Shown one piece after another: positions 1,170 to 40,448 of a DNA stretch of 64,000 bases. Every line of letters begins with the position of its first letter. Within the stretch, counting starts at the first letter, position 1. The position numbers and the translations under genes were made by a program. Source of the stretch: Rhodothermales bacterium. Its GTDB lineage: Bacteria; Bacteroidota; Rhodothermia; Rhodothermales; Bin80. Under the pieces are notes generated by a model that saw only the letters and a program-made list of their open reading frames with translations, did not search any database and was not told the DNA's origin. The stretch is from the NCBI GenBank assembly GCA_965220935.1, contig OZ244857.1, forward strand, positions 1,672,929 to 1,736,928, in the 5' to 3' direction.

Positions 1170-1276
1170 TCACTGCACCCGCATCAAGTGCCCGACCTGC
1201 ACCGCTGATGTGCTACTTTCCAGCGAGCTGGCCATGACCCGATAGAGATAGGCCCCCGCAGGCAGGCTAACTGATC
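1170..1276 (-). other. Out-of-frame 3' tail that encodes the missing end of the T9SS C-terminal domain of the 1184..6652 gene
   Basis: In the alternative minus-strand frame this stretch reads SLPAGAYLYRVMASSLESSTSAVQVGHLMRVQ*. That aligns with the paralog's C-terminus LPSGPYLYQLRAISLEDHSSSVYVGHFISVQ*. The annotated frame instead reads LACLRGPISIGSWPARWKVAHQRCRSGT*. This implies a 1-nt indel near 1266..1276 (minus strand gatcagttagc). Confidence 0.8.
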
Positions 1277-4200
1277 CAGCGTGAGTTCATGCTCCCACCC
1301 CGCGGTCAGGCTCACCAGAGGATGGGCATAAACGCGCCGACCCGTAACATCCAGCACATCTATCTCAACTTGGGCCGGCCACGGCAGATCAAACACAATG
1401 CGTGTGGAACGGGTAAACGGATTCGGATAATTGGCATGCACGGTCAACGTCTGCGGAAGCGCGGTCTGCGCTTCTGCATGGACAGTAGACACCACCTCAA
1501 TGCTAAAGTTCAGACTATCTTCCGCGCCATGCACATCCACGGCTTTAAACGTCATCGGCGTTGGTGGGGTGACGGCTAGTGGCGTTCCACTGACGGTTCG
1601 GGTGGGGAGGTCAAACAAAAGCCCACTCGGCAGGGACAACACCGTGAATGAATAGGTGACCGGGTCTTTTCCACCGCTCACCTCTGGCAGGACGAGCATT
1701 CCAATGGGTTGCCCCCTTGGAACCACCTGATCGTCCACACGCGTTGTAAAGGACATGCGATAGACCTCAAGGCCGAAGTCTTGACGGGCCACGCTCCCAG
1801 TTGCGTCCTGCACGGCCCAAGTAAATGATGTCATCGCCGTGAGTTCTGAAGGGGTGCCACGGAGTGTGCGCTCCGAGCGCGTCAGCCCCGCGGGTAAGTC
1901 GGGTGTCAAGGTGTAGGTATAGGGCATGGTGCCATCGGTCGCCTCTGGAAGCATCACCTGAGCGATGGGCTGCCCAATCGGATAGATTTGATCGCTGATC
2001 GTGCTGCTTAGCGATAAGGCCTTGGGCGTGACATTGACCACCTCTGATGGTGTGCCCTGACCAATGGCATTAAGCGCAATCACCCGAAAATAGACAGGAG
2101 GGGGCAGATTGGTGACGGTATACGTGGTCGACGGTGTACTGGCCACCAAGACCGTCCAATCCGATTGTCCATCAGACGATGTGTCAATGCGGTAGCCCGT
2201 GATCGCAGATCCTCCGTCATCTAAGGGCGCGGTCCACGAGAGAACCAGGGTCGATGGCCCCGACGCTGTGATCGTTAACTCTGTGGGCGCATCGGGCGTT
2301 GCCAGGGCATCGGTGGTGGCACTGACGGTATTGGATGCATCGCTATTGCCAACGCTATTGATCGCACGGACTCGATAAACCTGCGTCGTACCCGCAGCGA
2401 GATTGGTGTGCGTATAGGTGGTTGCCCTGGTCGTCGCCAGCTCCGACCAAGCCCCCGCATTAGAGACTTCAATCTGATAGCCGGTGATCGTCGCACCCCC
2501 ATTATCAGAGGGGGCAGTCCACGACAGGTTGATGCTGGTTCGCCCTGCAGCTGTCGCGGTGAGCTGCGAGGGAGCATCGGGCACTGTGGCATTGGGCGTG
2601 TCGGTAGTGGCGCTACTTGTCGACGATACAGCCCCCGGTCCAACCGAATTGATCGCACGCACCCGATAGTGACGCGTCACGCCTGCCGAAAGCCCTGTGT
2701 GCGCATAGGTGGTCGTGGTGGACTGGGTATTGGCCACCAAATTGGTCCATGTGTTCGCTGTTCCCGTATTAGACACTTCAATCTGGTAGCCCGTAATCGC
2801 CGCGCCGCCGGTATTGGTAGGTGCGGTCCACGACAGGTTGATGCTGGTTCGCCCTGTAGCTGTCGCGGTGAGCTGCGTGGGCGCAGCGGGCACGGTGGCA
2901 TTGGGCGTGTCGGTGGTGGCGCTCCTTGTCGCCGATACAGCCCCCGGTCCAACCGAATTGATCGCACGCACCCGATAGTGACGCGTCACGCCTGCCGAAA
3001 GCCCTGTGTGCGCATATGTGGTCGCAGTCGTATTCGCCACCAAGTCCGACCAGTTACTGGTGCCACTGGGCGAGACCTCAATCTGATAACCCGTGATGGG
3101 CGCGCCGCCGGTATTGGTAGGTGCGGTCCACGACAGGTTGATGATGGTTTGCCCGTCTGCCGTTGCGGTCAGTCCAGTCGGCGCGCCCGGTGCTGTCGCG
3201 GCTGCGGTGGTGGCATTGGCCACATTAGAAGGCGCCCCAGAGTTAACCGAGTTGATCGCACGCACCCGGTAATGCCGCGTGGTAGTGGCACTGAGTCCTG
3301 TATGGGCGTAGGTGGTCGCAGTGGATCTCGTATTGGCCTGCTGATTGGTCCAGTTTGACGTGCCATTGGGCGAAACCTCAATCCGATAGCCAGTAATATC
3401 TGCGCCCCCCGTATTGGATGGCGCCGTCCATGAAAGATTGATGATCGTCGGGCCCGAGGCCGTGGCCGTCAATCCCGTTGGCGCATCAGGGGCTGTGGCC
3501 GTAGCAATCGTTATCGTTAGAAAAGCGGCGGCGGAGAACTGACTCTGAAGGGATTCGTTCTCGCTCTGACCAATCCAGGTGGTAACCCGATACCCATAGG
3601 TCTTACCCGCCGATACCTGAGCATCGGTATAGGTTGTCGTGGTGACATCCCGTGCGAACAGTGACCAAAAATCCCCATCATCATCAGATTTGTAAACATT
3701 ATATCCAAACGTCTGATGGCCGGAAGGAAGATCGGTCGGGGCATCCCAGGAAATTTGCGCCGCGTTGGCCGACGTCTGGCGCACCCGTACATTGGTGGCA
3801 ATGCCTGACCCAGAGGCCGAGGCGGCTGTGACCGACACTGCATCCGAAGGGGCACTATCTCCCGATGCACTGCGTGCCAGAACCCGAAAATGAAACACGC
3901 TCCCCGGCGTCAAGCGACTACTGAGAAACTCGTACCTCGTCCGAGTCAGATCGTCGTATCCAATCAACGTCTCCCAGTTGGTGCCACCATCGGTAGACCA
4001 TTCCACCTTGTATCCTGTGATCGGCGAATCACTGGGCGGACGTCCCCAGGTAAGTCTCACATCATGAAAACCTGTAGGAAAAACCTGTAAATCGGGCGGG
4101 GCACCCGGGGCTCTGACGGCGGCGGTCGTGGCACTGGCCACATTGGACGCTGCTGCACTGGTCCCCTTTGAATTTCTGGCATAGACCCGGTAATGCCGCG

Positions 4201-6652
4201 TCGTACCCGCCGTGAGCCCCGTATGGCTGTAGGTGCGCCCCGTTCCCGTGTGTGCAGGCGTAACATTGGTCCACGTGTCCGTGCCATTGGGCGAGACTTC
4301 AATCTGGTAGCCCGTAATCGGTACCCCGCCTCTATTGGTCGGGGCTTTCCAAGACAGATTGATGGTCGTTTGCCCGTCGGCCGCAGCGGTCAACTCCGTA
4401 GGAGCCGCAGGGACCGTGGCAGGGAGGGTCGTGGTATTGGCCACATTGGAGACGGCCCCCGCTCCCTGCGAATTGATCGCGCTGACCCGGTAGTACCGCC
4501 TGGTGCCGGCATCCAAGCCCCCATGGACATAGCCGGTCGTGGTGGACCCAGTATTGGCCACCAAATCATCCCAGTTAGAGGTGCCATTGGGCGAGACTTC
4601 AATCTGGTAGCCCGTAATGGCTGCGCCCCCGGTATTGGTGGGCGCGTTCCAGGATAGGCTGATCGTTTCCGGGCCTTCAGCCTCGGCCCTTAACCCCGTG
4701 GGGGCCGCGGGCGTGGTGAGGGTCGGTGCCGCCGCCGTGGTCGCATTGACGGTACCAGAACTGGTGCCCTCACCCACCGAGTTGCGGGCAAAGACCCGGT
4801 AATGTCGCGTCGTGCCTGCGCTGAGCCCCGTATGGCGGTAGGTGCGACCTGTTCCGGTGTGTGCAGGCGTAACATTCGTCCATGGCGCATTTCCGTTGGA
4901 CGACCACTGCACCCGGTAGCCCGTAATGGCCCTGCCCCCATTATCGGCCGGGAGCGTCCATCTCAGATTGATCACCGTTTGCCCGTCGGCCGTGGCGGTT
5001 ACATTCCTGGGCACACCCGGAGCTGTGGCTGCGGCGGTCGTGGCATTGGCCACATTCGAGCGATCACTAAAGCCCAGCCCCGAACTATTGGCCGCAACCA
5101 CCCGGTAATCGCGCCGCGTCCCCGCCGAAAGTCCCGTATGCGAATAGGTGGTGGCTCCCCGGACGTCGGCCAAACCGGTCCAACTAGTTCCTTGATTCGT
5201 TGACACGCCAACGCGATAATAGGTAATGGGTGAGCCGCCGTCATCTGCAGGGGCCGTCCAGTTTAGGATGATCGTGGTGCGGCCCGAAGCCGTGGCCCTC
5301 AAGTTCCTGGGGGCACTGGGGCGCGAGGCGGCCGCGGTGATGGCCGTGGCGGAACTGGATGCCGCCCCTGCTCCTTCGGAATTGATCGCGCGGACCCGGT
5401 AAAACCGCTGGGTCGATGGCGCGAGTCCGGTATGTGTCGTGTCCGTTTTGGTGGTTTTGGTGTCAGTGACGAGAGTGCTGAAGCTGGTTTCGGATCGCAG
5501 CCTTGACTCAATCCGGTAGCCCGTGATGGCCGCGCCGCCGTTGTCGGTGGGGGCCGTCCATGTTAACTTGATCTTCGTCCGACCATCGGCGGTGGCCGTT
5601 AATCCCGTCGGAGCGGCGGGGGCGGTCAGGGCGGCGGTGGTAGGTTGAACCAATTTAAACGAATCATCACTACCAATGGCATTAATGGGTTGTACACTAA
5701 TGGTATATTTCGTGGATGCCATAAGCCCAGTGACCGTGTAACTTCTAACTGTTGGTTCAACATCAACGAAAGTTTCAGTACTAAAATCCTCGCCAACAAG
5801 AACGCGTACCCTGTACCCCGTGATCGGCGAGCCTCCCGTTTCTGTGGGTGGAGTCCACGAAATGTCAATGGTGGAAGGCCCCGTAACCGTCGCTGTAAGT
5901 GTCGCAGGTGAACCAGGGCGGGTGGCGCGACTAGTGGTGGGTTGAACAAATTTAAACGAACCATCACTACCAATGGCATTATTGGGTCGTACACTAATGG
6001 TATATTTCGTAGATGCCAGTAGCCCAGTGATCGTATAGCTTCTAACTGTTGGTTCAACATCAACGAAAGTTTCAGTTGTAAAATCCTCGCCAACAAAAAC
6101 GCGTACCCTGTACCCCGTGATCGGACTCCCCCCATCATCGCCGGGTGTCCATGAAACAGTAATCATGGAAGGGCTGTCAACTTTTGCTGTCAGTGTAGAT
6201 GGTGGACCAGGGCGGGTTCGCCCGTTGGTCGTTCCAGAGACGACATCGGACCAGGGACCATCCCCGTCGGCATCCCTACTTCGGATCCGGATATGGCGCG
6301 TGGTGCCTGGCGAGAGGCCAGTGAAAAGCGTTTCCGTTAGTCCGCCTGAAACCGTGCGAAGATCCTTCCAGTCTGAGGTTCCATCCGACGACCACTCAAT
6401 CTCATGCCCTGTGATGGCTTTATTCCCATTCGGGTTGGCCGTCCAGGAAATGGAAAGGGTCTCGCGTGCATTGCGCCCGGTTTGATAGGGTGCAACGGTC
6501 ACGCCTGTGGGTTTTCCGGGCGGGCGTTGGCCTGCCGTCGTCTCATGGAAGCGTTCTTGATCCGTGTCAGAAAGCGGAGTCGACTTTGAAGAAAGTAGGG
6601 CGTCGCCTGCAATCTTATTCTCACCGTCACGCTCTGATGCACTCAGCTGCAC
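1184..6652 (-). CDS. Giant fibronectin type III repeat surface protein with a T9SS C-terminal sorting domain. This is the central ORF; both the N-terminal signal peptide and the end of the CTD are out of frame.
   Basis: 1822-aa ORF. About 15 FN3 modules are recognisable from the recurring motif P..LTA.A.G.T.I.LSWTAP...GG..ITGY(Q/R)IEVS...HTGL..G..R.YRV.A.N. Two Ig/cadherin-like modules follow (MPYTYTLTPDLPAGL...GTPSE and VTYSFTVLSLPSGLLFD...SGTP). The sequence NYPNPFTRSTRIVFDLPWPAQVEIDVLDVTGRRV is a Por/T9SS CTD. The ORF starts at a GTG and has no signal peptide of its own. Confidence 0.9.
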   Translation of the reverse strand: MQLSASERDGENKIAGDALLSSKSTPLSDTDQERFHETTAGQRPPGKPTGVTVAPYQTGRNARETLSISWTANPNGNKAITGHEIEWSSDGTSDWKDLRTVSGGLTETLFTGLSPGTTRHIRIRSRDADGDGPWSDVVSGTTNGRTRPGPPSTLTAKVDSPSMITVSWTPGDDGGSPITGYRVRVFVGEDFTTETFVDVEPTVRSYTITGLLASTKYTISVRPNNAIGSDGSFKFVQPTTSRATRPGSPATLTATVTGPSTIDISWTPPTETGGSPITGYRVRVLVGEDFSTETFVDVEPTVRSYTVTGLMASTKYTISVQPINAIGSDDSFKLVQPTTAALTAPAAPTGLTATADGRTKIKLTWTAPTDNGGAAITGYRIESRLRSETSFSTLVTDTKTTKTDTTHTGLAPSTQRFYRVRAINSEGAGAASSSATAITAAASRPSAPRNLRATASGRTTIILNWTAPADDGGSPITYYRVGVSTNQGTSWTGLADVRGATTYSHTGLSAGTRRDYRVVAANSSGLGFSDRSNVANATTAAATAPGVPRNVTATADGQTVINLRWTLPADNGGRAITGYRVQWSSNGNAPWTNVTPAHTGTGRTYRHTGLSAGTTRHYRVFARNSVGEGTSSGTVNATTAAAPTLTTPAAPTGLRAEAEGPETISLSWNAPTNTGGAAITGYQIEVSPNGTSNWDDLVANTGSTTTGYVHGGLDAGTRRYYRVSAINSQGAGAVSNVANTTTLPATVPAAPTELTAAADGQTTINLSWKAPTNRGGVPITGYQIEVSPNGTDTWTNVTPAHTGTGRTYSHTGLTAGTTRHYRVYARNSKGTSAAASNVASATTAAVRAPGAPPDLQVFPTGFHDVRLTWGRPPSDSPITGYKVEWSTDGGTNWETLIGYDDLTRTRYEFLSSRLTPGSVFHFRVLARSASGDSAPSDAVSVTAASASGSGIATNVRVRQTSANAAQISWDAPTDLPSGHQTFGYNVYKSDDDGDFWSLFARDVTTTTYTDAQVSAGKTYGYRVTTWIGQSENESLQSQFSAAAFLTITIATATAPDAPTGLTATASGPTIINLSWTAPSNTGGADITGYRIEVSPNGTSNWTNQQANTRSTATTYAHTGLSATTTRHYRVRAINSVNSGAPSNVANATTAAATAPGAPTGLTATADGQTIINLSWTAPTNTGGAPITGYQIEVSPSGTSNWSDLVANTTATTYAHTGLSAGVTRHYRVRAINSVGPGAVSATRSATTDTPNATVPAAPTQLTATATGRTSINLSWTAPTNTGGAAITGYQIEVSNTGTANTWTNLVANTQSTTTTYAHTGLSAGVTRHYRVRAINSVGPGAVSSTSSATTDTPNATVPDAPSQLTATAAGRTSINLSWTAPSDNGGATITGYQIEVSNAGAWSELATTRATTYTHTNLAAGTTQVYRVRAINSVGNSDASNTVSATTDALATPDAPTELTITASGPSTLVLSWTAPLDDGGSAITGYRIDTSSDGQSDWTVLVASTPSTTYTVTNLPPPVYFRVIALNAIGQGTPSEVVNVTPKALSLSSTISDQIYPIGQPIAQVMLPEATDGTMPYTYTLTPDLPAGLTRSERTLRGTPSELTAMTSFTWAVQDATGSVARQDFGLEVYRMSFTTRVDDQVVPRGQPIGMLVLPEVSGGKDPVTYSFTVLSLPSGLLFDLPTRTVSGTPLAVTPPTPMTFKAVDVHGAEDSLNFSIEVVSTVHAEAQTALPQTLTVHANYPNPFTRSTRIVFDLPWPAQVEIDVLDVTGRRVYAHPLVSLTAGWEHELTLDQLACLRGPISIGSWPARWKVAHQRCRSGT
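2460..3160. repeat. Near-identical tandem DNA repeats with a 309-nt period (one FN3 module each) inside the giant gene
   Basis: The string caaccgaattgatcgcacgcacccgatagtgacgcgtcacgcctgccgaaagccctgtgtgcgcata occurs at 2641 and again at 2950, an offset of 309 nt or 103 codons. The flanking sequence is also nearly identical. Confidence 0.9.
5643..6236. repeat. Two tandem copies, about 297 nt each, of a low-G+C FN3 module
   Basis: Units start near 5643 and 5940 (ggttgaac(c/a)aatttaaacgaa(t/c)catcactaccaatggcatta...). They encode ...SPITGYRVRV(L/F)VGEDF(S/T)TETFVDVEPTVRSYT(V/I)TGL.ASTKYTISV... They are visibly AT-richer than the rest of the gene. Confidence 0.9.
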
Positions 6653-6659
6653 ACCCGTC

Positions 6660-6794
6660 TCACTGGATGAAGAAAATTGGGGGGGGGGGTAATCTCAAAA
6701 AGTAGTCACTCACATTTGTATGGAGAGAGTCAGCACTCACAACAGATCCGTGAGCCATAAAAGAAACGCAGAGTAAAGTATTGAGAATTAACAT
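6660..6794 (-). other. Detached leader ORF encoding the Sec signal peptide of the giant FN3 gene. It ends just after the poly-C tract.
   Basis: Hand translation from the ATG at 6794 gives MLILNTLLCVSFMAHGSVVSADSLHTNVSDYFLRLPPPPIFFIQ*. It has a hydrophobic signal-peptide core and then L-PPPP-IF, exactly as in the paralog (MPILNFLLVVLLAS...SSILPPPPIFSGD). It is in the +1 frame relative to ORF 1184..6652. Confidence 0.8.
6679..6689. repeat. G11 homopolymer (C11 on the coding strand) between the signal-peptide leader and the body of FN3 gene 1
   Basis: Counted directly from ...aaaatt gg ggggggggg taatc. A tract of C10 or C13 would fuse the leader to the 1822-aa ORF (TTA CCC CCC CCC CAA TTT TCT TCA TCC AGT GAG ACG GGT GTG CAG...). 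Confidence 0.95.
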
Positions 6795-7122
6795 AATAAA
6801 TTAATGAGGTTATGAACCGTACCAGTCACTAAAAAACAGTCTACAATCAAAAGACTGTAAAGGTTCCTTATGAATGATAACTACTGTGCTACTGTTGTGT
6901 TGATTAACTGCCAAAAACATCCAAAATATTAGATATCAATTCTCTAGGAAGCCAAAGGAAACAACGCCGAGTACAAAGAAAAACTTAGTGCCTCTAGACC
7001 ATTCTATCAGCCCAAAATACATTTTGGGCTTCTACTCAGTCTTTTTCAAGATGACACGTGATAACCGATAGATGCAGATAACAAAATCCTGTGTGAGGTT
7101 TACTGAGCGTGAATAATTGTTG

Positions 7123-8429: not shown

Positions 8430-10670
8430 TCAATACCGTCGACGCGGTCCTCCTCTGGAATGTCCCCGCCGGTTGTTTCCTCTATAACTTGATGCCGATC
8501 CGCCTCGTTGAGGGCGAGGGCCCTGTTTATAATTCGCTGGCCGGGGTACCGTCACTTTATGGCTGAGACGAAGCCTCCCACGGTCACGAATTTCCATAAG
8601 TCTGACCGTAAGCCTATCTCCGACCTGTACAAAATCATGAGGGCTGTTTACCCATTCCCATGAAAGTTCGCTCTTGTGCACCATGCCCTCTTTCCCTGGC
8701 AAAATCTCAACAATCGCGCCAATATCTGTAACACTCCGCACAGTGCCTTCATATTCTTCACCAACCACTGGCATGACAACTAAAGAGCGAATAATTTCAA
8801 TTGCATGCTCAACTGAGTTCTCATCTGAACCCGCAATCGTTACATATCCCAAATTATCCCTTTCTTCTACCTCAATGATAACCCCCGTATCAGCCTGAAT
8901 TCCCCTGACGATCTTTCCTCCTGGCCCAATAATTGCACCAATTAAATCACTATCTATCGTGATCTGAGTGAGTCGGGGGGCATGAGGAGACATCTGATCC
9001 CTTGGAGTTTCTAAAGTCTCATCCATTATATCAAGGATATGCAATCTTGCATCTCTAGCCTGCTGCAGTGCCTGCAACATGACATCGCGTGAAAGACCGC
9101 TGATCTTGATATCCATCTGGCAGGCAGTGATCCCGTCACGTGTGCCAGTAACCTTGAAATCCATGTCTCCGAGATGATCCTCTGTCCCAAGAATGTCTGT
9201 CAGGACAACATGCCGGTTTTCATCGGCAATCATTCCCATAGCAACACCCGCGACTGCTTTACGAAGAGGGACACCAGCATCCATCAGTGCAAGACTCCCA
9301 GAACAAACACTCGCCATGGATGATGAACCATTAGATTCCAGAACATCTGCGTTCACACGGATCGTATATGGAAACTCGTCCTGATCTGGAATCATTCCCT
9401 GTAATGCACGCTCTGCTAAGTATCCATGTCCAATTTCACGCCGACTAGCTCCTCGTAAAAATTTGACTTCGCCCGTTGAGAATGGCGGAAATTCATAGTG
9501 GAGAAAGAAATGCTTGTCCTCTTGGTCAAATACTTGATCAACAGGCTGCTGATCGCGTGTTGTGCCAAGCGTGACCGATGCCATCACCTGAGTTTCACCA
9601 CGAGTAAATATGGACGAACCATGCACGCGCGGCAGATACCCCGCCTCACACCATATAGGCCTGACAGATTCAGGATCACGACCGTCAATTCTTCGGTGAT
9701 CGGCCATGACCATTTCACGCATAACATCTCGTGAAACAACCGATGCAGCACCACGAATGTGATGTTCAACAGAGTCGAGGTCATCCTCGGGGAACTCAGC
9801 AGAAATTGTTTCTACGGCTTCTTCAACAAGATCAGAAAGCCCACCATAGAATTTTTTCTTTTCATAAGGTGCTCGAATGTGAGACTCTATCTTGAATTGA
9901 ATGAGTTCCCGGACTCTCTGAACCATTTCTGGTTCAGGAACATCAACTTCATATTCCATAGACTCTATCAGGCCATGTGTCGCTTCAAATTGAGACTGTA
10001 AATCAAGTTGAGATTGACAGATCTTTTTGATAACCACATGGGCGGTGGCCAGCGCCTCAACAATTTCTTCTTCTGAACATTCATTCATTTCCCCCTCTAC
10101 CATCATAATTGCATCTGTTTTCCCTGCGACCACCAGATTAAAGTCACTTGACCTTAATTCGTCAACTGTCGGGTTCACAATAAATGCGCCGCCAATACGA
10201 CCAATCCGAACTTCAACAATTGGCCCGTCAAAAGGGGAGCCAGAGAGCATCAGAGCTGCCGATGCGCCAATTCCGTATAGCATATCGCCATCGTTCTCAC
10301 CATCGGCGGAAATAACCGACCCGATGAGTTGGACCTCATTTCGGAAGCCCTCGGGAAACAAAGGCCTGATAGCACGGTCAACAAGTCGAGACGTAAGAAT
10401 CTCCTTGTCATTGAGTCGTCCCTCTCGTTTGATAAACCCGCCTGGAATTTTACCTCCAGATGCGAATTTTTCACGGTAATCCACAGTCAGTGGAAAAAAG
10501 TTGTGACCAGATCGCGCGGAATCTGAAATCACAGCCGTCGCTATGACCATTGTATCACCAGCCCGCACTATTACAGCACCTCCAGCTTGCTTGGCCAGTC
10601 TACCCGTTTCTATTGTTATTACTTTGCCAGGTGCATACTCTGTCTGCACCGTTATTGCTTTAGGTTTCAT
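8430..10670 (-). CDS. pnp: Polyribonucleotide nucleotidyltransferase (PNPase)
   Basis: 746 aa with two RNase PH domains, KH and S1 domains (EGTVRSVTDIGAIVEILPGKEGMVHKSEL), and an Arg/Gly-rich C-terminal tail. It sits in the conserved position downstream of rpsO. Confidence 0.95.
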   Translation of the reverse strand: MKPKAITVQTEYAPGKVITIETGRLAKQAGGAVIVRAGDTMVIATAVISDSARSGHNFFPLTVDYREKFASGGKIPGGFIKREGRLNDKEILTSRLVDRAIRPLFPEGFRNEVQLIGSVISADGENDGDMLYGIGASAALMLSGSPFDGPIVEVRIGRIGGAFIVNPTVDELRSSDFNLVVAGKTDAIMMVEGEMNECSEEEIVEALATAHVVIKKICQSQLDLQSQFEATHGLIESMEYEVDVPEPEMVQRVRELIQFKIESHIRAPYEKKKFYGGLSDLVEEAVETISAEFPEDDLDSVEHHIRGAASVVSRDVMREMVMADHRRIDGRDPESVRPIWCEAGYLPRVHGSSIFTRGETQVMASVTLGTTRDQQPVDQVFDQEDKHFFLHYEFPPFSTGEVKFLRGASRREIGHGYLAERALQGMIPDQDEFPYTIRVNADVLESNGSSSMASVCSGSLALMDAGVPLRKAVAGVAMGMIADENRHVVLTDILGTEDHLGDMDFKVTGTRDGITACQMDIKISGLSRDVMLQALQQARDARLHILDIMDETLETPRDQMSPHAPRLTQITIDSDLIGAIIGPGGKIVRGIQADTGVIIEVEERDNLGYVTIAGSDENSVEHAIEIIRSLVVMPVVGEEYEGTVRSVTDIGAIVEILPGKEGMVHKSELSWEWVNSPHDFVQVGDRLTVRLMEIRDRGRLRLSHKVTVPRPANYKQGPRPQRGGSASSYRGNNRRGHSRGGPRRRY

Positions 10671-20879: not shown

Positions 20880-23516
20880 TTAACTGGAATCTAAAATTTC
20901 AAAAAATGCTTCCTTAAACTCCTCCTTATTATGCCCCATTTGATTGAAAAAGGGCAATCCGCGCACAATGTACTCTTCTACCTGAAACACTTCTTGAACT
21001 TTATCAGTCCATTGTATATTCGCCATAAAATCTTGTTTCCATAAATCATTGGATATGAGATGTTCTCCTTTGGGCTCAATAAATAACTGGAGAATATTTC
21101 CAACTTCTTCACCTTTTTTCCGAAGAAATAAGATAAAGTCAGGCTCAAATCCCTCCCCATTTTCAAAAGAGTAAAGTTTTACGGCCTTTTCATTTCTCAG
21201 AAGAAAAAAATCATCATATCGTTTTTTGAGGTTTTCGGCCTCGTAATACAAATACTCAATGAAGCGCTTTTCCTCGCTTGTTCCATAACTCGTATCATAA
21301 GCGTGCCAATCTTCATCAATTGGATTAATAAGGTTTAGGTTCGGTAAATTGCTCTCCTTCCAGCTAAGCCCTTTTTCACCTTGAATTTTAATTTTCAGTG
21401 TCTTATCAACAAAGCACTGGCTGATTTTCTTACGCGTGAACTCAGTTGTTCCGACGAATTCTGCCCTACGACGCTTCAAACTAATCTCAATTTGATTAAG
21501 GGCATATTGTACAATTTTAACACTCTGACGAGCAGTTATTCGTTCAAGATCTTCACGATTTCCTCGAACCTGAATATTCACATTTCTTAGGAATAATTCC
21601 GAAGTTTGAAACTCTAGTGTACTTCGGAGGTGTGGAAAATATCTTTGTAGGTTAACGAAGTGAAAAAAATCATTGGAGTCCATGGCAAAATCCAAAATAG
21701 ATCTGTCAAATTCTGATACATTCAAGTTTTTAGAAACCACTGTAGAATTATTGCCACATTGACTTCCCCCTTCGTCATTGTGATTAAAGGCTGATATTTC
21801 GGTGACTTGTCCTGTCATCAGAGTGTGTGGAAATACAAAGTTTGTTTCTATTTCGTAGGATCTCAATTGGCCAATACTTTCAGGTAAGAACTTGCTTCTC
21901 CGATCATTGACCCACACATAACCGATCTTATAAAACTGTGATTGCTTAAAACTGTCTTTCAGACGTAGATGTACTGTACGGCTTTTTTCATCATGCATTC
22001 CGATTTTTTTAAGTGCTCGCTTAAGCTCATCAATGTATCTTGGATTATGGGAGCAGTGATAATGTAGCTCCTCCAAAATTCTTAGATTGTGTTCTATATT
22101 TCTATCGTACTTACGCTTTTCTGGTGTGGCTTCTGGTAAATCGGGATCCATAAACGGGAAATATCTGGCACCCCGCCCTATGAGTTGCGCCTCTGACATA
22201 GTTGTTGCGCCAATCCTTTCGCCTCTACTATCTCTAGTATTATATAGGCGCACAATGTCAAATAAATTTAGAACGTCCCATCCCTCATCCAACTTATTGA
22301 CTGCAAAAATTACTCGAAGATCATTAGATTTGTCTTCCAGATTGTTTAAGTCTATCTGAAGATCCTCAAGATCTATAAGTCTGTTTACATTTGCGGTCTT
22401 CCCGTCTCCAAAATCCCCTTTTAACTCAAGTGCAAAATCATCAAATTCTATTCCGCATTCGTCAATGATATATTCAAAAGCTCCTGATAAGGTCATGTCG
22501 TTCACTGATGAATTACGAATTTGTCTAAGATTATCACCAGACAATCCATTGACCATGGATACAAATAAAGTCTCATTTTCGGCCGATTGGGCAATAGTTT
22601 TGGACTTCATTAGAATCACAGGCTTACAAAATATTCCATGTGCTTCTGCTACTTTTCGCCTGTATTGACTTAACACCATGGCTTGTAGCATTCGATCATG
22701 CGGAGTTAAATCGGCCTGCCTTAATTCAATATCTTTTGAATATCCATCCGCCCTAAAATGCTTTAATTGGTAATCATAAATGACCTTGTCGTAATACTTT
22801 ATCTTAATTTCACTGTGATTGAGATCAGCAGTAGCAGTAAACTCCAATAGAATATTTTTAGAGTGTTGATCAAAAATAGATGTGACGGTATTTTCCCAGC
22901 TTTTGAGCCCAGTAACCTCGGTAGATGTTAAATTGTTTCTTGTGTGTGCATTTAGATGGTGAGCCTCATCCGAGATCATAACTATTTGGTGTTCCTGAAA
23001 ATCTTCCATTGTTACAGCATCTTCTCTGGGATTGAGCATTCTTGTGTGTAACCCTTGAATTGTAGTAAAATGAATATTGATCGTTTGAAGATTCGCTGCC
23101 TCAAAGGTATCAACTGCTTGAACTTCCACTTGCTTACCATCAATGCGTATGTTCTGACTGAATAAATATTTCAGCGATTGTGAGTTAAGAAAATTATCTC
23201 TGGTTTTTTCAATTATCTGATTTGAGTTTACAAAAAACAGGAAATTCCTATAGCCCCGACGATAAAGATCAAGTATTAAAGCAGCCATCAATACTGTTTT
23301 ACCGCTTCCTGTTGCCATGTGAAACAGCAAATGAGGTCTTGGTGATCTGTGGTTATACTTATCAATGTAGTAAAACCACCGTTCAATTGCTTCAACTTGA
23401 TAAGGACGAAGATTAATTCTTTGGGCAAGATTGTCAGTGATATTGGATGGTAAGTCTTTTTTTAAGATATCCTGCTCTGACAATGTGTCAAATGTTTCAA
23501 GAAGACTCCGTTTCAT
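20880..23516 (-). CDS. res: Type III restriction enzyme Res subunit (SF2 helicase + PD-(D/E)xK nuclease)
   Basis: 878 aa with motif I FHMATGSGKT, motif II MISDEAHHL and motif VI QLIGRGARY. The C-terminal nuclease-like segment is GFEPDFILF...LQLFIEPKGEHL. The start overlaps the upstream mod stop (ATGA at 23513..23516). Confidence 0.85.
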   Translation of the reverse strand: MKRSLLETFDTLSEQDILKKDLPSNITDNLAQRINLRPYQVEAIERWFYYIDKYNHRSPRPHLLFHMATGSGKTVLMAALILDLYRRGYRNFLFFVNSNQIIEKTRDNFLNSQSLKYLFSQNIRIDGKQVEVQAVDTFEAANLQTINIHFTTIQGLHTRMLNPREDAVTMEDFQEHQIVMISDEAHHLNAHTRNNLTSTEVTGLKSWENTVTSIFDQHSKNILLEFTATADLNHSEIKIKYYDKVIYDYQLKHFRADGYSKDIELRQADLTPHDRMLQAMVLSQYRRKVAEAHGIFCKPVILMKSKTIAQSAENETLFVSMVNGLSGDNLRQIRNSSVNDMTLSGAFEYIIDECGIEFDDFALELKGDFGDGKTANVNRLIDLEDLQIDLNNLEDKSNDLRVIFAVNKLDEGWDVLNLFDIVRLYNTRDSRGERIGATTMSEAQLIGRGARYFPFMDPDLPEATPEKRKYDRNIEHNLRILEELHYHCSHNPRYIDELKRALKKIGMHDEKSRTVHLRLKDSFKQSQFYKIGYVWVNDRRSKFLPESIGQLRSYEIETNFVFPHTLMTGQVTEISAFNHNDEGGSQCGNNSTVVSKNLNVSEFDRSILDFAMDSNDFFHFVNLQRYFPHLRSTLEFQTSELFLRNVNIQVRGNREDLERITARQSVKIVQYALNQIEISLKRRRAEFVGTTEFTRKKISQCFVDKTLKIKIQGEKGLSWKESNLPNLNLINPIDEDWHAYDTSYGTSEEKRFIEYLYYEAENLKKRYDDFFLLRNEKAVKLYSFENGEGFEPDFILFLRKKGEEVGNILQLFIEPKGEHLISNDLWKQDFMANIQWTDKVQEVFQVEEYIVRGLPFFNQMGHNKEEFKEAFFEILDSS

Positions 23517-24782
23517 AGATCTATTTTGTAGAATTTTCTGGTAATTTCTACATTTTCATCAGAGATTGAAAACCACTCATCGCCGAGTGAATGGATGTTA
23601 ACATATAAATGATTGGCATCCATACAATCTTTCAGCGCTCGCTTCGCATCATCCATGGAAAGATTCGTAAATTTTTCTGATGCAAAAGATTTCATATTGA
23701 CATCATAGCGAAGAAAACCAGTCTTTTGTATTTCGTTTTTGATGCAAAGTAGAGTTTTGAAGTCAGTAGCTGCGTCAATTTTCTCCATAAATTGTGAGTT
23801 AGAGTCTGCAAGTTGAGCATAAATAAATGAACCACCTCCTGCCCAGTCAACTACCTTAGAAACTCCACCCTGTTCGCCTTCAATGACCTTTTTTAGGCGG
23901 ATCTTGATTAAGTCATCAACATAGTTCATCTGTTCAATTGCAATCCATTGACGCCCCATCTTGTGAGCAACTGCTGGCGTGGTGCCTGACCCTGCAAAGA
24001 AATCCATCACAATATCATTCGGATTTGTTGATGCGCGGATGATTAGTTCTGCAAAGGCTTCTGGCTTTGGATAGGCAAAATCCACTTTCCCAAATATCTT
24101 ATTTCGTTCTTTGGTTGCTTTCTGATTCATGTATTGATTATCTGCACCTTCAAGGCTTCCAAGTAAATTATATTCGCTTTTGATTTCACTTAAATAGCGC
24201 TTAAAAATAAAGCCTCTCTGATTTTCAGAATGCTTTTTTCTAAATTTGATTTTTCCAGATTTAATGTAATCTCGAAGTCTCCCTCCCGAAAATAGCCACT
24301 GGCGATTTTCGGGAGGGAGATCAACTTTCCCTGTATATGGGTTCTTAATTGGAAAATAATAATCACCCGACCGAGCACTTGGATTATCACTTGCCCATGG
24401 TCCATTGGGATCATTGTCGGGGTTCTTGTAATTCTCAAATGTCTTTTTTTTACCAACTAATTCAATCTTGGACTTATCCTTTGCATAGATGAGTGTATTT
24501 TCGTGCTGAATATTAAATCCAGTTCTCGCATCATTAGTTGTTGACTTTGTCTTCCTTATTAAATCTCCCACGAAGTTCTCTCTTCTGAATATCTCATCCA
24601 TCAACACTTTGAGATAGGCCTGTTCATTATCGTCAATATGGATAACTATCAACCCATCATCTGTAAGAAACTGTTTGGCCACTTCAAGTCGATTACGCAT
24701 GAACGTGAGCCACGAACTGTGATTGAATCTGTCATTATATCTGAACCCATCATTCCCCGTATTGTAAGGGGGATCAATGTAA

Positions 24783-25391
24783 ATCAATTTCACTTTCCCC
24801 GCATAGCGAGTTTTCAGTGAATGGAGAGCTAAGAGATTATTACCCTTAATCAGCAAATTGTCATCTTCACGCACCTCACCTACTGCACTGGAAAATGCCC
24901 CCCCCCCCCCCCCATTTTTTCTGGATTGACACTCCAGCGCTCCCATCCTGTCAACACCTTTGGCTCAAACAATCTTGTAATGTCATCTGGAGACAACACA
25001 GTGTTCCAGAATATCTCTTTTCTCCCCCGATCTTCCTTTGTCATACCACCCTCCAAAACACAGTCCTTGTAAGGCCATGTAAGGACTACATCGCGTGACT
25101 GACTTAAATGATTCCCTCGCCCATCTACCAGACCAATACGATTTTTGAATGCCGTGTAACTGTTTGGGAGAAAGGTCTTGTTTGACACAAAACTTTGGAA
25201 TTTCACCTTGTCAAAAACCAGGGTTTTACCAACTTTGACAAAAAAGTGTGATTTGATTTTTTCGGATTGAAGTAGCAGTTCAAGAAGCCTTTTATCCAAA
25301 CGCAAGGCCGCTTCAATGACAACATTTCGGAGAATCTCTCCATCAGAAATATACTCAGACTCAGACTCTAATAACTTGATTAAATCGTTAA
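24783..25391. repeat. Direct repeat copy A: 5' module of mod copy 1 (609 nt including C16)
   Basis: By-eye alignment to 26830..27433 shows no differences apart from homopolymer length. The encoded N-terminal ~175 aa are identical in the two ORF translations. Confidence 0.85.
24898..24913. repeat. C16 homopolymer (G16 on the mod coding strand)
   Basis: Counted directly: ...gaaaatg ccc / cccccccccc / ccc atttttt. Tracts of G11, G14 or G17 would be in frame; G16 is not. Confidence 0.95.
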
Positions 25392-25562
25392 AGAGATTTT
25401 GCATGTTTGATGCTTATGACCGTGATTGTTCGGTTTGAAAGTTTATAAATTGATAGATCAATTAATGTTACCGTTAAATAGTATTCCAAATAAGACATAC
25501 GGGAGATCATCTCAAAGTCAAACCCTCAAAACCAGAAATATACGAACTTCTAAGTATAATCA

Positions 25563-27488
25563 TTACGAAATGCCGTAAAATTTACGAGTCAATTCTGCAT
25601 CTTCTTTGGAAATTGTATGCACTTCATCGCCGAGCGAGTTGAGGTTTACATATAGATTATTGGTATCCAAGCAATCCATCAACAAACGCTTTGCATCATC
25701 CAGAGGAATATTGAAGAAATCATTATCATCAAATGGTTCCAAGTTAACATCATATCTGAGAAAACCTGTTGCTTGAATTTGATTCTTTATCGCATAGAGT
25801 TTTGAAATATCAGTAGCGATAGAAATTTGATCTACAAAAACCGAATTTGAATCCGCAAGCTCTGCATAAATAAATGATCCACCTCCAGTCCATCCGATAG
25901 TTTTTGATATTCCACCTTGCTCACCTTCAATCACCCTCTTCATTCGTTCAATCGTAGTATTTTGGATATAATCCATTTGTTCAATTCCAATGAATCTCCG
26001 TTTCATTTTATGTGCGGTGCTAATAGTGGTACCGCTTCCTAAATGATAATCTAGCACAATATCTCCTTCATCGGTTGACAGTTGTATAATTCTTTCCATT
26101 AACCCCTCTGGTTTAGGATTAGCAAATACTTTTTGCCCAAATAACTGTTTAAGGTGTTGTGTGCCATTTGTAGTTGTTTGTAAATCTCTCCACAAGGTAG
26201 TTGTAACTTCCCCTCGTGATTTCGCTTCAGACCAAAATCTTTTTCTCTGAGGACCGGCTTCGCCAGAAATACCAAATACAATCCGACCATCAGCGAGTAA
26301 TTCATCAAAAACTTTTTTTTCATTTTTCCAACTATTTCCTTTATTGGGCTTATATACCACTCCTGTATGTGGATTAGTAATTTCATATAACTGATTAGGT
26401 CTTTTTCCCCCAACCTGGAAGGGATCTGCCACCCATTTGCCTCTTGCATCATTATCTGGATTTGAAAATTTACTTTCATCACTGGGGAGTCTAAACTGAG
26501 TTCTATTTTTCTTCAACTGTTTTATATCCTTTGAGTACAATAACAAATGAGTATGTGCATTGGAAATTAAAGCTGTATTGGTCACTGACTTTGTGGAATT
26601 CCATATGACATCAGCTACAAAATTATCTCTTCCAAAAATTTCATCCATCAATATTTTACAATAGTGCGCCTCTTCATCAGACAGTGAAATCCAGAATAAA
26701 CCATCCTTAGATAATAATTCTCTTGCCGCTTCCAAACGATTTCGCATAAACGTCAGCCATGTTGAATGCCTGAATCGGTCGTTATACTGGAAACCGTCAT
26801 TTCCTGTATTGTAAGGGGGGTCAATAAAGATCAATTTCACTTTCCCCGCATAGCGAGTTTTCAGTGAATGGAGAGCTAAGAGATTATTACCCTTAATCAG
26901 CAAATTGTCATCTTCACGCACCTCACCTACTGCACTGGAAAATGCCCCCCCCCCCATTTTTTCTGGATTGACACTCCAGCGCTCCCATCCTGTCAACACC
27001 TTTGGCTCAAACAATCTTGTAATGTCATCTGGAGACAACACAGTGTTCCAGAATATCTCTTTTCTCCCCCGATCTTCCTTTGTCATACCACCCTCCAAAA
27101 CACAGTCCTTGTAAGGCCATGTAAGGACTACATCGCGTGACTGACTTAAATGATTCCCTCGCCCATCTACCAGACCAATACGATTTTTGAATGCCGTGTA
27201 ACTGTTTGGGAGAAAGGTCTTGTTTGACACAAAACTTTGGAATTTCACCTTGTCAAAAACCAGGGTTTTACCAACTTTGACAAAAAAGTGTGATTTGATT
27301 TTTTCGGATTGAAGTAGCAGTTCAAGAAGCCTTTTATCCAAACGCAAGGCCGCTTCAATGACAACATTTCGGAGAATCTCTCCATCAGAAATATACTCAG
27401 ACTCAGACTCTAATAACTTGATTAAATCGTTAAGGATATTTTGTTGATTTCCTGAATAATCCTGATTTCTGTTCATGATTGATGCCAT
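25563..27488 (-). CDS. mod: Type III DNA methyltransferase Mod (copy 2, intact, N6-adenine beta-class order IV-TRD-I)
   Basis: 641 aa with IFIDPPYNTGNDGF (motif IV), a central region divergent from copy 1 (candidate target-recognition domain), and VLDYHLGSGTT (motif I). The poly-G tract encodes GGG in frame. Confidence 0.9.
   Translation of the reverse strand: MASIMNRNQDYSGNQQNILNDLIKLLESESEYISDGEILRNVVIEAALRLDKRLLELLLQSEKIKSHFFVKVGKTLVFDKVKFQSFVSNKTFLPNSYTAFKNRIGLVDGRGNHLSQSRDVVLTWPYKDCVLEGGMTKEDRGRKEIFWNTVLSPDDITRLFEPKVLTGWERWSVNPEKMGGGAFSSAVGEVREDDNLLIKGNNLLALHSLKTRYAGKVKLIFIDPPYNTGNDGFQYNDRFRHSTWLTFMRNRLEAARELLSKDGLFWISLSDEEAHYCKILMDEIFGRDNFVADVIWNSTKSVTNTALISNAHTHLLLYSKDIKQLKKNRTQFRLPSDESKFSNPDNDARGKWVADPFQVGGKRPNQLYEITNPHTGVVYKPNKGNSWKNEKKVFDELLADGRIVFGISGEAGPQRKRFWSEAKSRGEVTTTLWRDLQTTTNGTQHLKQLFGQKVFANPKPEGLMERIIQLSTDEGDIVLDYHLGSGTTISTAHKMKRRFIGIEQMDYIQNTTIERMKRVIEGEQGGISKTIGWTGGGSFIYAELADSNSVFVDQISIATDISKLYAIKNQIQATGFLRYDVNLEPFDDNDFFNIPLDDAKRLLMDCLDTNNLYVNLNSLGDEVHTISKEDAELTRKFYGIS
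26830..27433. repeat. Direct repeat copy B: 5' module of mod copy 2 (604 nt including C11)
   Basis: See 24783..25391. The copies are offset by about 2.04 kb in the same orientation. Confidence 0.85.
26945..26955. repeat. C11 homopolymer (G11 on the mod coding strand), in frame
   Basis: Counted directly: aatg cccccc / ccccc atttt. Confidence 0.95.
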
Positions 27489-39065: not shown

Positions 39066-40448
39066 GGGCCTCCCATTTTTTAAGTGGGTGATATTTTCAG
39101 AAATGGGTAAACGAGGGTAACAAGAATAAGGTTCGGTAAGGATTTTTATAGTAGTTTAGATTTGTTTATCTATCCTTCAACTTATCAAAAAAAGATGGCT
39201 TTAAAAATAACGGATGTGAATCATTTGATTGGTATTGCGTCACCGTGTCCGAGATTGAGCAGGAGACGAGTCGTTATGCGGCGAGGATCCATGTAGCGCT
39301 TTCGGGGGATGCGGAGTTAAGGTGTCCGGAGTGTGGGAAGGCGTGTCCGGGGTATGATCACCGAGAGCGACGCTGGCGCCATACTAATATCTGTGATTAT
39401 CGTACGGAGGTCGTCGCGAAGGTGCCCCGTGTGCAGTGTCCACAGCATGGTATGAGTACGATTTCGGTTCCTTGGGCCGATGCTCGTGTGCAATTCACGT
39501 CCAGTTTTGAGGCCTGTGTGATGGATTGGTTGCATGATGCAACCAGCATTTCAGTGATCGCGAAACGCTTAGGGGTGAGTTGGACGATGATCGCTCATAT
39601 TATGGATCGTGGAATCAAGCGTGGATTGGAGCGCAAGCCAGAGAAGATCGTGCCTCATATTTGCGTAGATGAGACAGCGTCCAAGAAGGGGCACAACTAT
39701 GTGACGATTGTATCGGATCCTGCAACGGGTACGGTGTTACATGTGTCAGAGGGGCGAACAATAGAGAGTTTATTAGAGTACTACGATAGTTGTTCACCTG
39801 AGCAAATTGCAGGGATTGAAAGTGTGAGTATGGATATGTGGCCTGCCTACATCACTGCAACAAGGATGCGTATACCCGATGCCGATTGCATTTGACCATT
39901 TTCATATCTCTAAATATGTTGGAACTGGGGTGGATGAGGTTCGCAGAGAGGAGAATCGTGCGTTAAAGAAACTGGGGATTCTGGATTTGGTAGGGACAAA
40001 GTATGATTGGCTTAAGAATCGGGCCAGCATGTCGGCCAAGCAAAAGAAGCGGTTTAACCTCTTGAAAAACAGTGCACTGAAAACAGCACGCGCTTGGGCG
40101 ATGAAAGAAGTGTTCCAGACGCTGTGGAAGTATAAACATCGCACTTGGGCGCTCAAAGCATGGAACCGTTGGTTAGGGTGGCTCTCACGCAGTCGTCTGG
40201 AGCCGATGAAAAAAGTGGCTAAAACCATTAGAAGTCATCTTTGGAGCATGATCAATGCGGTGGTTTTAGATGTGAGTAATGGGCCGGCTGAAAGCATCAA
40301 TAGTCGCATCAAAATGATCAAAATCCGTGCGCGTGGATTCAGAAATCCTGAACGATTAAAGAATGCAATTTACTTCTATCTTGGTGGACTTGATTTGTAT
40401 CCAGAAGGCACCAAAAATCGGCCAACCCACTCTTAAAACGGGAGGCCC
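39066..40448 (+). mobile_element. ISL3-family insertion sequence, copy 1 (degenerate)
   Basis: Imperfect terminal IRs are gggcctcccattttttaagtgggt (left) and the reverse complement of acccactcttaaaacgggaggccc (right). It is about 98-99% identical to copy 2. The flanks ttattaat and gatttaat are not a clean 8-bp duplication. Confidence 0.85.
39195..40436 (+). pseudogene. ISL3-family transposase in three pieces
   Basis: zf-ISL3 CPECGKAC...; DDE_Tnp_ISL3 (CVDETASKKGHNYVTIVSD, MDMWPAYI, FDHFHISKY). Relative to copy 2, a 7-nt net deletion at ~39246 shifts the N-terminus. The shared frame break is at 39879..39895 (RIPDADCI* / MPIAFDHFH). Confidence 0.85.

What the first reader, a model, noticed from the sequence alone, without database searches (positions are those of the whole stretch)
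6660..6794. The signal peptide of giant FN3 gene 1 is a separate 44-codon ORF, uncoupled from the body by a C11 tract
The 1822-aa ORF (1184..6652) starts at a GTG and has no signal peptide, although it ends in a T9SS sorting domain that requires Sec export first. Hand translation upstream finds MLILNTLLCVSFMAHGSVVSADS...LRL-PPPP-IFFIQ*, a typical signal peptide. It runs into a C11 tract (6679..6689) and terminates 17 nt later in the +1 frame relative to the body. C10 or C13 would fuse it in frame. The paralog at 47441..51964 has the same layout (signal peptide, L-PPPP-IF) with C12 in frame. This is the classic geometry of slipped-strand phase variation of a surface protein.
Basis: partly seen in the sequence, partly recalled or inferred. 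Interest (0 to 1): 0.85.

Follow-up and report, generated by a model that had tools for sequence, protein, structure and literature searches.

The report
Poly-C on/off switch, surface-protein gene
A run of 11 cytosines separates the export signal from the body of a giant surface-protein gene; related genomes show that this run changes length freely, so it is a textbook slippage-type on/off switch in an unusual bacterial group, here set to "off" in a copy that is also broken at its far end.

Summary
A 44-codon leader ORF (6794..6660, minus strand) runs through a C11 tract (6679..6689) and stops 8 nt before the GTG of the 1822-aa FN3 ORF. C10 or C13 would fuse the two, and the paralog (C12, 51863..51874) is in frame.

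The phase-variation reading is supported by comparison, not by reads:
- A second strain of the same species (about 98% identical, 1281x) has C14 at this site and C10 at the paralog, with nearly identical flanks.
- Three near-identical leader cassettes in another genome carry C9, C9 and C10.
- Across nine cassettes, two are ON and seven OFF, and both OFF frames occur.
- The window holds four G/C runs of 11 or more and none of 7-10. The other two sit in tandem Type III mod genes.

- This copy's T9SS sorting domain is broken by a separate 1-nt deletion near 1266/1267. The other strain has it intact. Resetting the tract would not restore a secretable protein.
- The leader has a hydrophobic core but no basic n-region.

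Several homologs are multiply frameshifted. This is a new member of a known kind, resembling Neisseria pilC. Within-population switching is untested.

The parts
6660..6794 (-). Leader ORF of 44 codons. It has a signal-peptide-like hydrophobic N-terminus, then the tract read as PPPP, then IFFIQ and a stop.
   Evidence: Hydropathy and absence of K/R. Homologous 44-codon leader ORFs in L003 and L008.
6679..6689 (-). C11 homopolymer (G11 on the plus strand). This is the hypermutable element that sets the reading frame between leader and body.
   Evidence: The orthologous tract in the second strain is C14. It is one of only 8 indels in 11.8 kb between the strains.
1184..6652 (-). Body ORF of 1822 aa from GTG. 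It contains about 15 FN3 repeats, He_PIG/Ig domains and the first half of a T9SS type A sorting domain.
   Evidence: dN/dS against the ortholog in the second strain is 0.45.
1170..1429 (-). T9SS C-terminal sorting domain (starts NYPNPF). It is interrupted by a 1-nt deletion between 1267 and 1266 (TTAG[A]CCTG). The authentic tail continues in another frame to a TGA at 1170..1172.
   Evidence: TIGR04183 scores 19.1 bits as it stands and 30.4 bits repaired, cut-off 23. The same broken protein is on two contigs.
47441..51964 (-). Paralogous FN3/Calx-beta/He_PIG gene with a T9SS tail. Leader and body are in frame (ATG at 51958).
51863..51874 (-). C12 tract of the paralog, the ON length. The ortholog in the second strain has C10 (OFF).
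   Evidence: There is 1 substitution in about 390 flanking nt.
52080..53471 (-). ISL3 element inserted about 115 bp upstream of the paralog's start codon. It is absent at this site in the second strain.

Best explanation
The C11 run is a hypermutable homopolymer of the contingency-locus type. It sits exactly between the export leader and the mature part of a giant FN3 surface protein destined for type IX secretion.

Proposed mechanism:
1. Slipped-strand mispairing during replication adds or removes cytosines (inferred).
2. Lengths of 10 or 13 join leader and body into one pre-protein that can cross the inner membrane and then be sorted by its C-terminal domain.
3. Lengths of 11, 12 or 14 yield only a 44-residue leader peptide. 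The body is then untranslated, or at best made without an export signal.

State of this genome (read from the sequence): the switch reads OFF. The copy has also lost the last third of its T9SS sorting domain through an unrelated 1-nt deletion. It is therefore best described as a locked-off, probably decaying copy of a switchable gene family. The sister paralog in the same window is ON.

What is shown: the geometry, the length differences between strains and between paralogs with conserved flanks, an ON and an OFF allele at the same locus (the paralog), and the second lesion.

What is inferred: that length changes happen fast enough to give mixed populations, that they are selected for, and that the leader works as a Sec signal.
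For: Geometry:
- Leader, tract and body are as described, and C10 or C13 fuse them.

Length differences with conserved flanks:
- Gene 1 is C11 here and C14 in a strain of about 98% identity assembled at 1281x. The tract is one of only 8 indels in 11.8 kb, and none of them lies in a housekeeping gene.
- The paralog is C12 (ON) here and C10 (OFF) in that strain, with 1 substitution in about 390 flanking nt.
- Three cassettes with identical flanks in contigs of one sample carry C9, C9 and C10.
- A Flavobacteriaceae MAG has the same design, with one copy OFF and one ON.

Distribution of states:
- Nine cassettes give 2 ON and 7 OFF, and both OFF frames are seen.

Company the tract keeps:
- All four long G/C runs in the window lie in the 5' part of genes of the classic phase-variable classes: two surface proteins and two Type III mod genes.

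Selection on the body:
- The bodies evolve with dN/dS of 0.45 and 0.34, so they were under selection until recently.

Precedent:
- Neisseria pilC has a poly-G tract in its signal-peptide region (PMC5354566).
Against: - There are no reads, so heterogeneity within a population is unproven.
- Gene 1 and its five closest homologs are all OFF, and no ON allele of them exists in the protein collection. The cluster of the window protein has a single member.
- The window copy has a second frameshift, in the sorting domain.
- L003, L009 and L004_a are multiply frameshifted. This fits decay as well as it fits switching.
- The leader lacks the basic n-region usual for Sec signals.
- Coverage of the window contig is only 11x.
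Confidence: 0.65

Rival explanations
1. Plain pseudogenes. The gene family is being lost in these genomes, and the tract-length differences are neutral drift in dead genes. No adaptive or reversible switching is involved.
For: - Seven of nine cassettes are OFF.
- The window copy has a second frameshift in the sorting domain.
- L003 is split into 200 + 91 + 1505 aa, L009 into 399 + 1251 aa, and L004_a into 146 + 226 aa and then truncated.
- The loci are surrounded by IS elements of the ISL3, IS66, IS605 and Tn5-like types.
- In the second strain the Type III system is also decayed: the mod genes are gone and res is split.
Against: - dN/dS of 0.45 and 0.34 over 1,800 and 1,470 codons is well below 1.
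- L002 and L008 have bodies of 1834 and 1829 aa whose only lesion is the tract.
- The paralog and L004_b are ON.
- Neutral decay does not explain why long G/C runs sit only at the 5' ends of surface-protein and mod genes, with no runs of length 7-10 anywhere in the window. It also does not explain why the tract is kept at the same site in diverged genomes.
Confidence: 0.2
2. Consensus error at a long homopolymer in a low-coverage long-read assembly. The true length would be C10 or C13 and the gene would be in frame.
For: - The contig name gives 11x coverage.
- Long G/C homopolymers are the main indel error mode of long-read consensus (my own knowledge).
Against: - The same OFF protein is called on two contigs.
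- Relatives assembled at 240x to 1281x are also out of frame.
- C12 in the paralog and G11 in one mod gene are in frame in the same assembly, so there is no systematic bias.
- There are no indels in any housekeeping gene relative to the second strain.
- Even with an in-frame tract, the sorting-domain deletion, which is not in a homopolymer, remains.
Confidence: 0.08
3. Programmed recoding. The out-of-frame genomic state would be the expressed state, with the frame restored either by +1 ribosomal slippage of tRNA-Pro on CCC-C during a poly-proline stall, or by RNA-polymerase stuttering on the C run.
For: - Six of the seven OFF cassettes are in the same frame, ON+1.
- About 30 nt after the tract are conserved at the nucleotide level between genes whose leaders are unrelated.
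- CCC-C sites are known to be prone to +1 shifts (my own knowledge).
Against: - L009 is in the other OFF frame, and two cassettes are in frame.
- mod2 is OFF in the ON-1 frame.
- Folding downstream of the tract gives no stable or conserved RNA structure, with z-scores from -0.7 to +1.8.
- Nothing in Rfam matches.
- The zero-frame stop lies 5 codons after the tract, not at it.
Confidence: 0.07

Closest known systems
Neisseria pilC (poly-G tract in the signal-peptide coding region)
   Same: A homopolymeric G/C run inside or just after the leader-coding part of a surface or adhesion protein gene. Frameshifts uncouple the export signal from the mature protein. Two paralogs switch independently (PMC5354566).
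   Different: The phylum and export route differ: type IV pilus tip protein there, a giant FN3 protein with a T9SS C-terminal domain here. Switching is shown experimentally in Neisseria. Here it is only inferred from comparison of assemblies.
Poly-G/C contingency loci of Campylobacter, Helicobacter and Haemophilus (my own knowledge)
   Same: Several long G/C tracts per genome, concentrated at the 5' ends of surface-structure and restriction-modification genes. Tract length differs between strains, and many loci are found OFF in genome sequences.
   Different: Those are cultured pathogens with measured switching rates. Here the genomes are uncultured metagenome-assembled ones that rarely use Shine-Dalgarno sites (Bacteroidota-like), and the tract also marks the junction between interchangeable leader cassettes and different gene bodies.
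Type III mod phasevarions
   Same: The same window has two Type III mod genes with a G11 (in frame) and a G16 (out of frame) tract in the ORF. [quoted passage not shown]
   Different: This concerns the neighbouring genes, not the finding itself. It is used here as evidence that the genome uses tract-based switching.
Invertible-promoter phase variation of Bacteroides surface structures (my own knowledge)
   Same: ON/OFF variation of surface molecules in Bacteroidota.
   Different: The mechanism is site-specific DNA inversion, not homopolymer slippage. No invertase or inverted repeats were looked for or seen at this locus.

Membership tests
Simple-sequence-repeat (homopolymer) phase-variable contingency locus | A long repeat tract inside the ORF (or promoter) whose length determines whether the product is made | tested here: met
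   C11 lies between leader and body, and C10 or C13 fuse them. Tracts of this length are far above chance.
Simple-sequence-repeat (homopolymer) phase-variable contingency locus | Tract length differs between closely related strains or copies while the flanks are conserved | tested here: met
   C11 vs C14. C12 vs C10 with 1 substitution in about 390 nt. C9, C9 and C10 in identical cassettes.
Simple-sequence-repeat (homopolymer) phase-variable contingency locus | Both ON and OFF lengths occur at the same locus | tested here: inconclusive
   Met for the paralog: ON in the window, OFF in L006. Not seen for gene 1 and its five close homologs, which are all OFF.
Simple-sequence-repeat (homopolymer) phase-variable contingency locus | High-frequency, reversible length change within a clonal population | not testable with these tools
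   No sequencing reads or cultures are available, only consensus assemblies.
Simple-sequence-repeat (homopolymer) phase-variable contingency locus | The ON length yields a functional product | tested here: not met
   For the window copy, the fused ORF still ends in a frameshifted sorting domain. The ortholog in L002 would be intact.
T9SS type A cargo protein | C-terminal type A sorting domain (TIGR04183 / PF18962) | tested here: not met
   As it stands: 19.1 bits against a cut-off of 23, and only model positions 2-35 match. With the 1-nt deletion repaired: 30.4 bits, positions 2-61. The ortholog's tail is intact. The paralog scores 21.5 bits, just under the cut-off.
T9SS type A cargo protein | N-terminal Sec signal peptide | tested here: inconclusive
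   There is a hydrophobic core (Kyte-Doolittle 2.2 over 11 residues) and a VSA|D site, but no basic residue before it. The homologous L004 leader is a clear lipoprotein-type signal, with K/R and a Cys after the hydrophobic core. No signal-peptide predictor was available.
T9SS type A cargo protein | T9SS machinery encoded in the same genome | not tested
   None lies in the 64-kb window, and the rest of the genome could not be fetched.
Programmed frameshift / transcriptional slippage site | The same frame offset is conserved in all homologs | tested here: not met
   Six are ON+1, one is ON+2 (L009), and two are in frame.
Programmed frameshift / transcriptional slippage site | A stimulatory element (RNA structure, or a stop codon at the shift site) | tested here: not met
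   Fold z-scores run from -0.7 to +1.8, and no structure is shared. The stop codon lies 5 codons downstream of the tract.

The most novel reading that the evidence does not exclude
The tract may be part of a portable 5' switch module. In that reading, a leader cassette that ends in a C(n)-A-T(n) junction is exchanged by recombination between different surface-protein genes, with the homopolymer as the crossover point. In the Flavobacteriaceae MAG the cassette also carries a second G9 tract in what looks like a promoter spacer.

The same C(n)ATTTT junction recurs, on the opposite strand, in the Type III mod genes. That would point to a lineage-specific DNA-level process that creates or maintains such tracts. 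The predominance of ON+1 lengths would then reflect leaky expression through +1 slippage on poly-proline codons.

This would be a dedicated, modular phase-variation system for T9SS cargo in uncultured Bacteroidota, a phylum known for inversion-based rather than repeat-based switching.
Probability: 0.15. Interest if true: 0.65.

Novelty: new member of a known kind. Interest (0 to 1): 0.4.

Why it matters
If switching is confirmed, it would show that uncultured T9SS-bearing bacteria vary giant FN3 adhesin-like proteins by homopolymer slippage. That mechanism is mostly documented in proteobacterial pathogens, whereas Bacteroidota are known mainly for invertible promoters. My literature searches found no report of repeat-based phase variation of T9SS cargo.

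There is also a practical point. Genes like this are called as signal-less ORFs or as pseudogenes in MAG annotation. Tract-aware annotation would change the predicted surface proteome.

For this particular copy the importance is limited, because it is OFF and also damaged at the C-terminus.

Tried and rejected
- **Fixed-frame recoding (+1 PRF or transcriptional slippage).** I considered this seriously when the first four homologs were all in the same OFF frame. I rejected it as the main explanation after finding L009 in the other OFF frame, two in-frame cassettes, and no RNA structure.
- **Systematic homopolymer miscalling.** Rejected because C12 and G11 tracts in the same assembly are in frame, and because there are no indels in housekeeping genes relative to the second strain.
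- **GTDB genome scan with the conserved post-tract motif.** Only one hit, OZ244911.1, which is the same genome as L004.
- **JGI metagenome scans.** Both the DNA motif and a protein-alignment query returned nothing.
- **Homolog search with the fused N-terminus.** Only two hits. More copies came from cluster membership.
- **Rfam.** Only a tRNA in the window.
- **Exact look-up of the 44-aa leader.** Not in the collection.
- **Taxonomic name for the window genome.** None obtained. Bacteroidota affinity is inferred from the T9SS tail, from Shine-Dalgarno motifs in only 1 of 31 genes, and from the Flavobacteriaceae label of one homologous locus.
- **Literature searches for phase variation of T9SS cargo.** Nothing relevant found.

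Full report
**1. The observation**

On the minus strand an ATG at 6794 opens a 44-codon ORF (MLILNTLLCVSFMAHGSVVSADSLHTNVSDYFLRLPPPPIFFIQ*). It runs through exactly eleven cytosines (6679..6689) and stops at 6662..6660, 8 nt before the GTG (6652) of an 1822-aa ORF. The body is +1 relative to the leader. Editing the tract in silico to C10 or C13 gives a single ORF of 1869 or 1870 aa.

The body carries about 15 FN3 repeats plus He_PIG/Ig domains, and its own N-terminus is hydrophilic. The paralog at 47441..51964 has the same layout with C12 (51863..51874) in frame.

Long C/G runs are far above chance: 18 overlapping 9-mers against 0.29 expected. Run lengths are bimodal. Runs are either 6 or shorter, or 11 or longer, and none has length 7-10.

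**2. Two corrections**

*The T9SS sorting domain of this copy is not intact.* After ...HELTLDQL the ORF reads ACLRGPISIGSWPARWKVAHQRCRSGT*. The sequence expected from the paralog (LPAGAYLYRVMASSLESSTSAVQVGHLMRVQ*) lies in another frame and ends at 1170.
- The ortholog in a second strain reads TTAGACCTG where the window reads TTAGCCTG. This is a 1-nt deletion between 1267 and 1266, and it is not in a homopolymer.
- On TIGR04183 the C-terminus as it stands scores 19.1 bits (cut-off 23, model positions 2-35 only). The repaired version scores 30.4 bits.
- The broken protein is recorded on two contigs.

*The leader is signal-peptide-like but not typical.* It has a hydrophobic core and a VSA|D site, but no Lys or Arg in the n-region. 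The paralog and L003 leaders share this property. No signal-peptide predictor was available.

**3. Source and quality of the sequence**

The window is identical to an ENA metagenome contig named ctg52284_11x_l (L001). The same proteins also sit on a 4.08-Mb NCBI contig. The contig names carry coverage values, and 11x is low for calling a C11 run to the base.

The assembly is otherwise clean. Against a second strain (L002, circular 4.15 Mb, 1281x, 98.2% identity over 11.8 kb) there are only eight indels. Seven are intergenic and one is the tract. None lies in a housekeeping gene.

Shine-Dalgarno-like motifs precede only 1 of 31 genes. Together with the T9SS tail this points to Bacteroidota (inference). 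One homologous locus lies in a MAG labelled Flavobacteriaceae, OZ244911.1.

**4. Comparative evidence on the tract**

| Cassette | Source | Tract | State | Body |
|---|---|---|---|---|
| Gene 1 | window | C11 | OFF (ON+1) | 1822 aa, sorting domain frameshifted |
| Gene 1 ortholog | L002, second strain | C14 | OFF (ON+1) | 1834 aa, sorting domain intact |
| Paralog | window | C12 | ON | 1505 aa |
| Paralog ortholog | L006, second strain | C10 | OFF (ON+1) | 1498 aa as called |
| L003 | another genome, sample ERZ25070844 | C9 | OFF (ON+1) | split 200 + 91 + 1505 aa |
| L008 | same sample | C9 | OFF (ON+1) | 1829 aa, intact |
| L009 | same sample | C10 | OFF (ON+2) | split 399 + 1251 aa |
| L004_a | Flavobacteriaceae MAG | C9 | OFF (ON+1) | decayed FN3 remnant |
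| L004_b | same MAG | C9 | ON | 1355 aa, a different protein |

- At the paralog locus there is a single substitution in about 390 flanking nt between the two strains.
- L003, L008 and L009 come from contigs at 240x to 294x. Their cassettes have identical sequence for 150 nt upstream and 60 nt downstream of the tract.
- L004_a and L004_b share a lipoprotein-type leader followed by C9.

In total there are nine cassettes, with tract lengths from 9 to 14. Two are ON and seven OFF, and both OFF frames are represented. The predicted pattern, that length varies while flanks are conserved, is seen at two orthologous loci and among paralogs.

**5. Context**

The other two long tracts in the window lie in tandem Type III mod genes.
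- G11 (26945..26955) is in frame in a 641-aa Mod.
- G16 (24898..24913) splits the next mod gene into 174 + 477 aa. G14 or G17 would restore it.
- The two Mods are identical for about 240 residues and then diverge in the central region. A single res gene follows.
- Repeat-bearing Type III mod genes are a recognised class of phase-variable regulators, making up 17.4% of such genes (PMC5909438).

So all four long tracts of the window are in the 5' parts of gene classes that are classically phase-variable.

The FN3 bodies evolve with dN/dS of 0.45 and 0.34. Their dS (0.21 and 0.13) is several-fold above that of neighbouring housekeeping genes (0.003 to 0.065). That pattern fits selected but fast-diverging or recombining surface genes, not long-dead ones.

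**6. Mechanism and rivals**

*Best explanation (confidence about 0.65).* This is a hypermutable homopolymer switch between leader and mature protein, working by slipped-strand mispairing. The geometry matches Neisseria pilC (PMC5354566). In this strain gene 1 is OFF and additionally carries the sorting-domain lesion, so it is a locked-off, probably decaying copy. The paralog is ON, although an ISL3 element sits about 115 bp upstream of its start codon.

*Plain pseudogenisation without adaptive switching (about 0.2).* It is favoured by the many secondary lesions and the IS-rich surroundings. It is disfavoured by dN/dS below 1, by bodies that are intact apart from the tract in L002 and L008, by the ON alleles, and by the specific placement of the tracts.

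*Consensus error (about 0.08).* It is disfavoured by the high-coverage relatives, by the in-frame C12 and G11 tracts in the same assembly, and by the clean housekeeping genes.

*Programmed recoding (about 0.07).* This was attractive while the first four homologs all sat in the ON+1 frame and the about 30 nt after the tract looked conserved. L009 (ON+2), the two in-frame cassettes, and the lack of any significant or shared RNA fold argue against it as the design principle. Leaky +1 slippage on CCC-C codons remains possible but untested.

**7. Novelty and score**

Repeat-mediated phase variation of a surface protein through a tract next to the signal peptide is textbook biology. What is new is the host and the cargo: uncultured, Bacteroidota-like genomes and giant FN3 proteins with T9SS tails. 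The modular leader cassettes are also new.

My searches found no paper on repeat-based phase variation of T9SS cargo. This library is incomplete, so absence there is weak evidence.

The verdict is a new member of a known kind, with interest 0.4. The decisive missing datum is the read-level distribution of tract lengths.

Noticed in passing
window 23513..27488 (tracts 24898..24913 and 26945..26955), with res at 20880..23516: Two tandem Type III mod genes, each with a poly-G tract in the ORF. G11 is in frame (641 aa). G16 is out of frame (174 + 477 aa), and G14 or G17 would restore it. The two proteins are identical for about 240 residues including the tract region, then diverge in the central part, which is presumably the target-recognition region. 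A single res gene follows. In the second strain (L007) the mod genes are missing and res is split into 389 + 312 aa, next to transposases.
   Followed up: partly
window 1259..1276: A 1-nt deletion (TTAG[A]CCTG) truncates the T9SS sorting domain of gene 1. It is not in a homopolymer, it is intact in the second strain (L002 16790..16800), and the same broken protein is on two contigs.
   Followed up: yes
window 52080..53471, and 39245..40436: An ISL3 element is inserted about 115 bp upstream of the paralog's start codon and is absent at that site in L006. Both ISL3 copies in the window (98% identical) have the transposase split at the same point into two overlapping ORFs (...IPDADCI* / MPIAFDHFH...). 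They therefore share a frameshift, or use one.
   Followed up: partly
L004 7744..7752 and 10065..10073 (Flavobacteriaceae MAG OZ244911.1): Each of two adjacent surface-protein genes has a G9 tract about 190 nt upstream of its coding C9 tract. The G9 tract sits a few bases before a TATCTTTG box that matches the Bacteroidetes -7 promoter consensus TAnnTTTG (consensus from my own knowledge). This may be a second, promoter-spacer switch. The two genes share the whole leader cassette but have unrelated bodies.
   Followed up: partly
L008 10822..10832: There is a C11 tract four codons into an IS66-family transposase ORF (ATGAATACCAAA-C11-GTTTCTGAC). C12 would join the ATG to the downstream frame. 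The homologous IS66 copy in L003 (start 5270) has no tract at this position.
   Followed up: partly
window 6672..6689, 24898..24921, 26945..26963, 51855..51874; L002, L003, L004, L006, L008, L009 tracts: Nearly all long C tracts seen (four of four in the window, plus most in the related loci) are followed on the C strand by A (or AA/TA) and a T run: C(n)ATTTTTTC, C(n)AATTTTC or C(n)TATTTT. The IS66 tract in L008 is an exception. The C strand is the coding strand in the FN3 genes and the antisense strand in the mod genes and the L004 promoter tracts. In the window 4 of 4 long tracts show this, against 6 of 263 shorter C runs. This is unexplained.
   Followed up: partly
alignment A1 (window 6600..6960, L002, L003, L004, L006): The tract is a homology breakpoint. 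L004_a shares its leader with L004_b up to and including the tract. After the tract it shares about 30 nt (TTTTCTTCATCCAGTGAGACGGGTG) with window gene 1, whose leader is unrelated. This suggests that leader cassettes and gene bodies have been recombined at the homopolymer.
   Followed up: partly
window 1184..6652 and 47441..51862 vs L002 / L006: Synonymous divergence of the two FN3 genes between the strains (dS 0.21 and 0.13) is several-fold higher than in adjacent housekeeping genes (0.003 to 0.065). Synteny downstream of gene 1 is also broken: MscS follows it in the window, and rplK-rplA-rplJ-rplL-rpoB in L002.
   Followed up: partly
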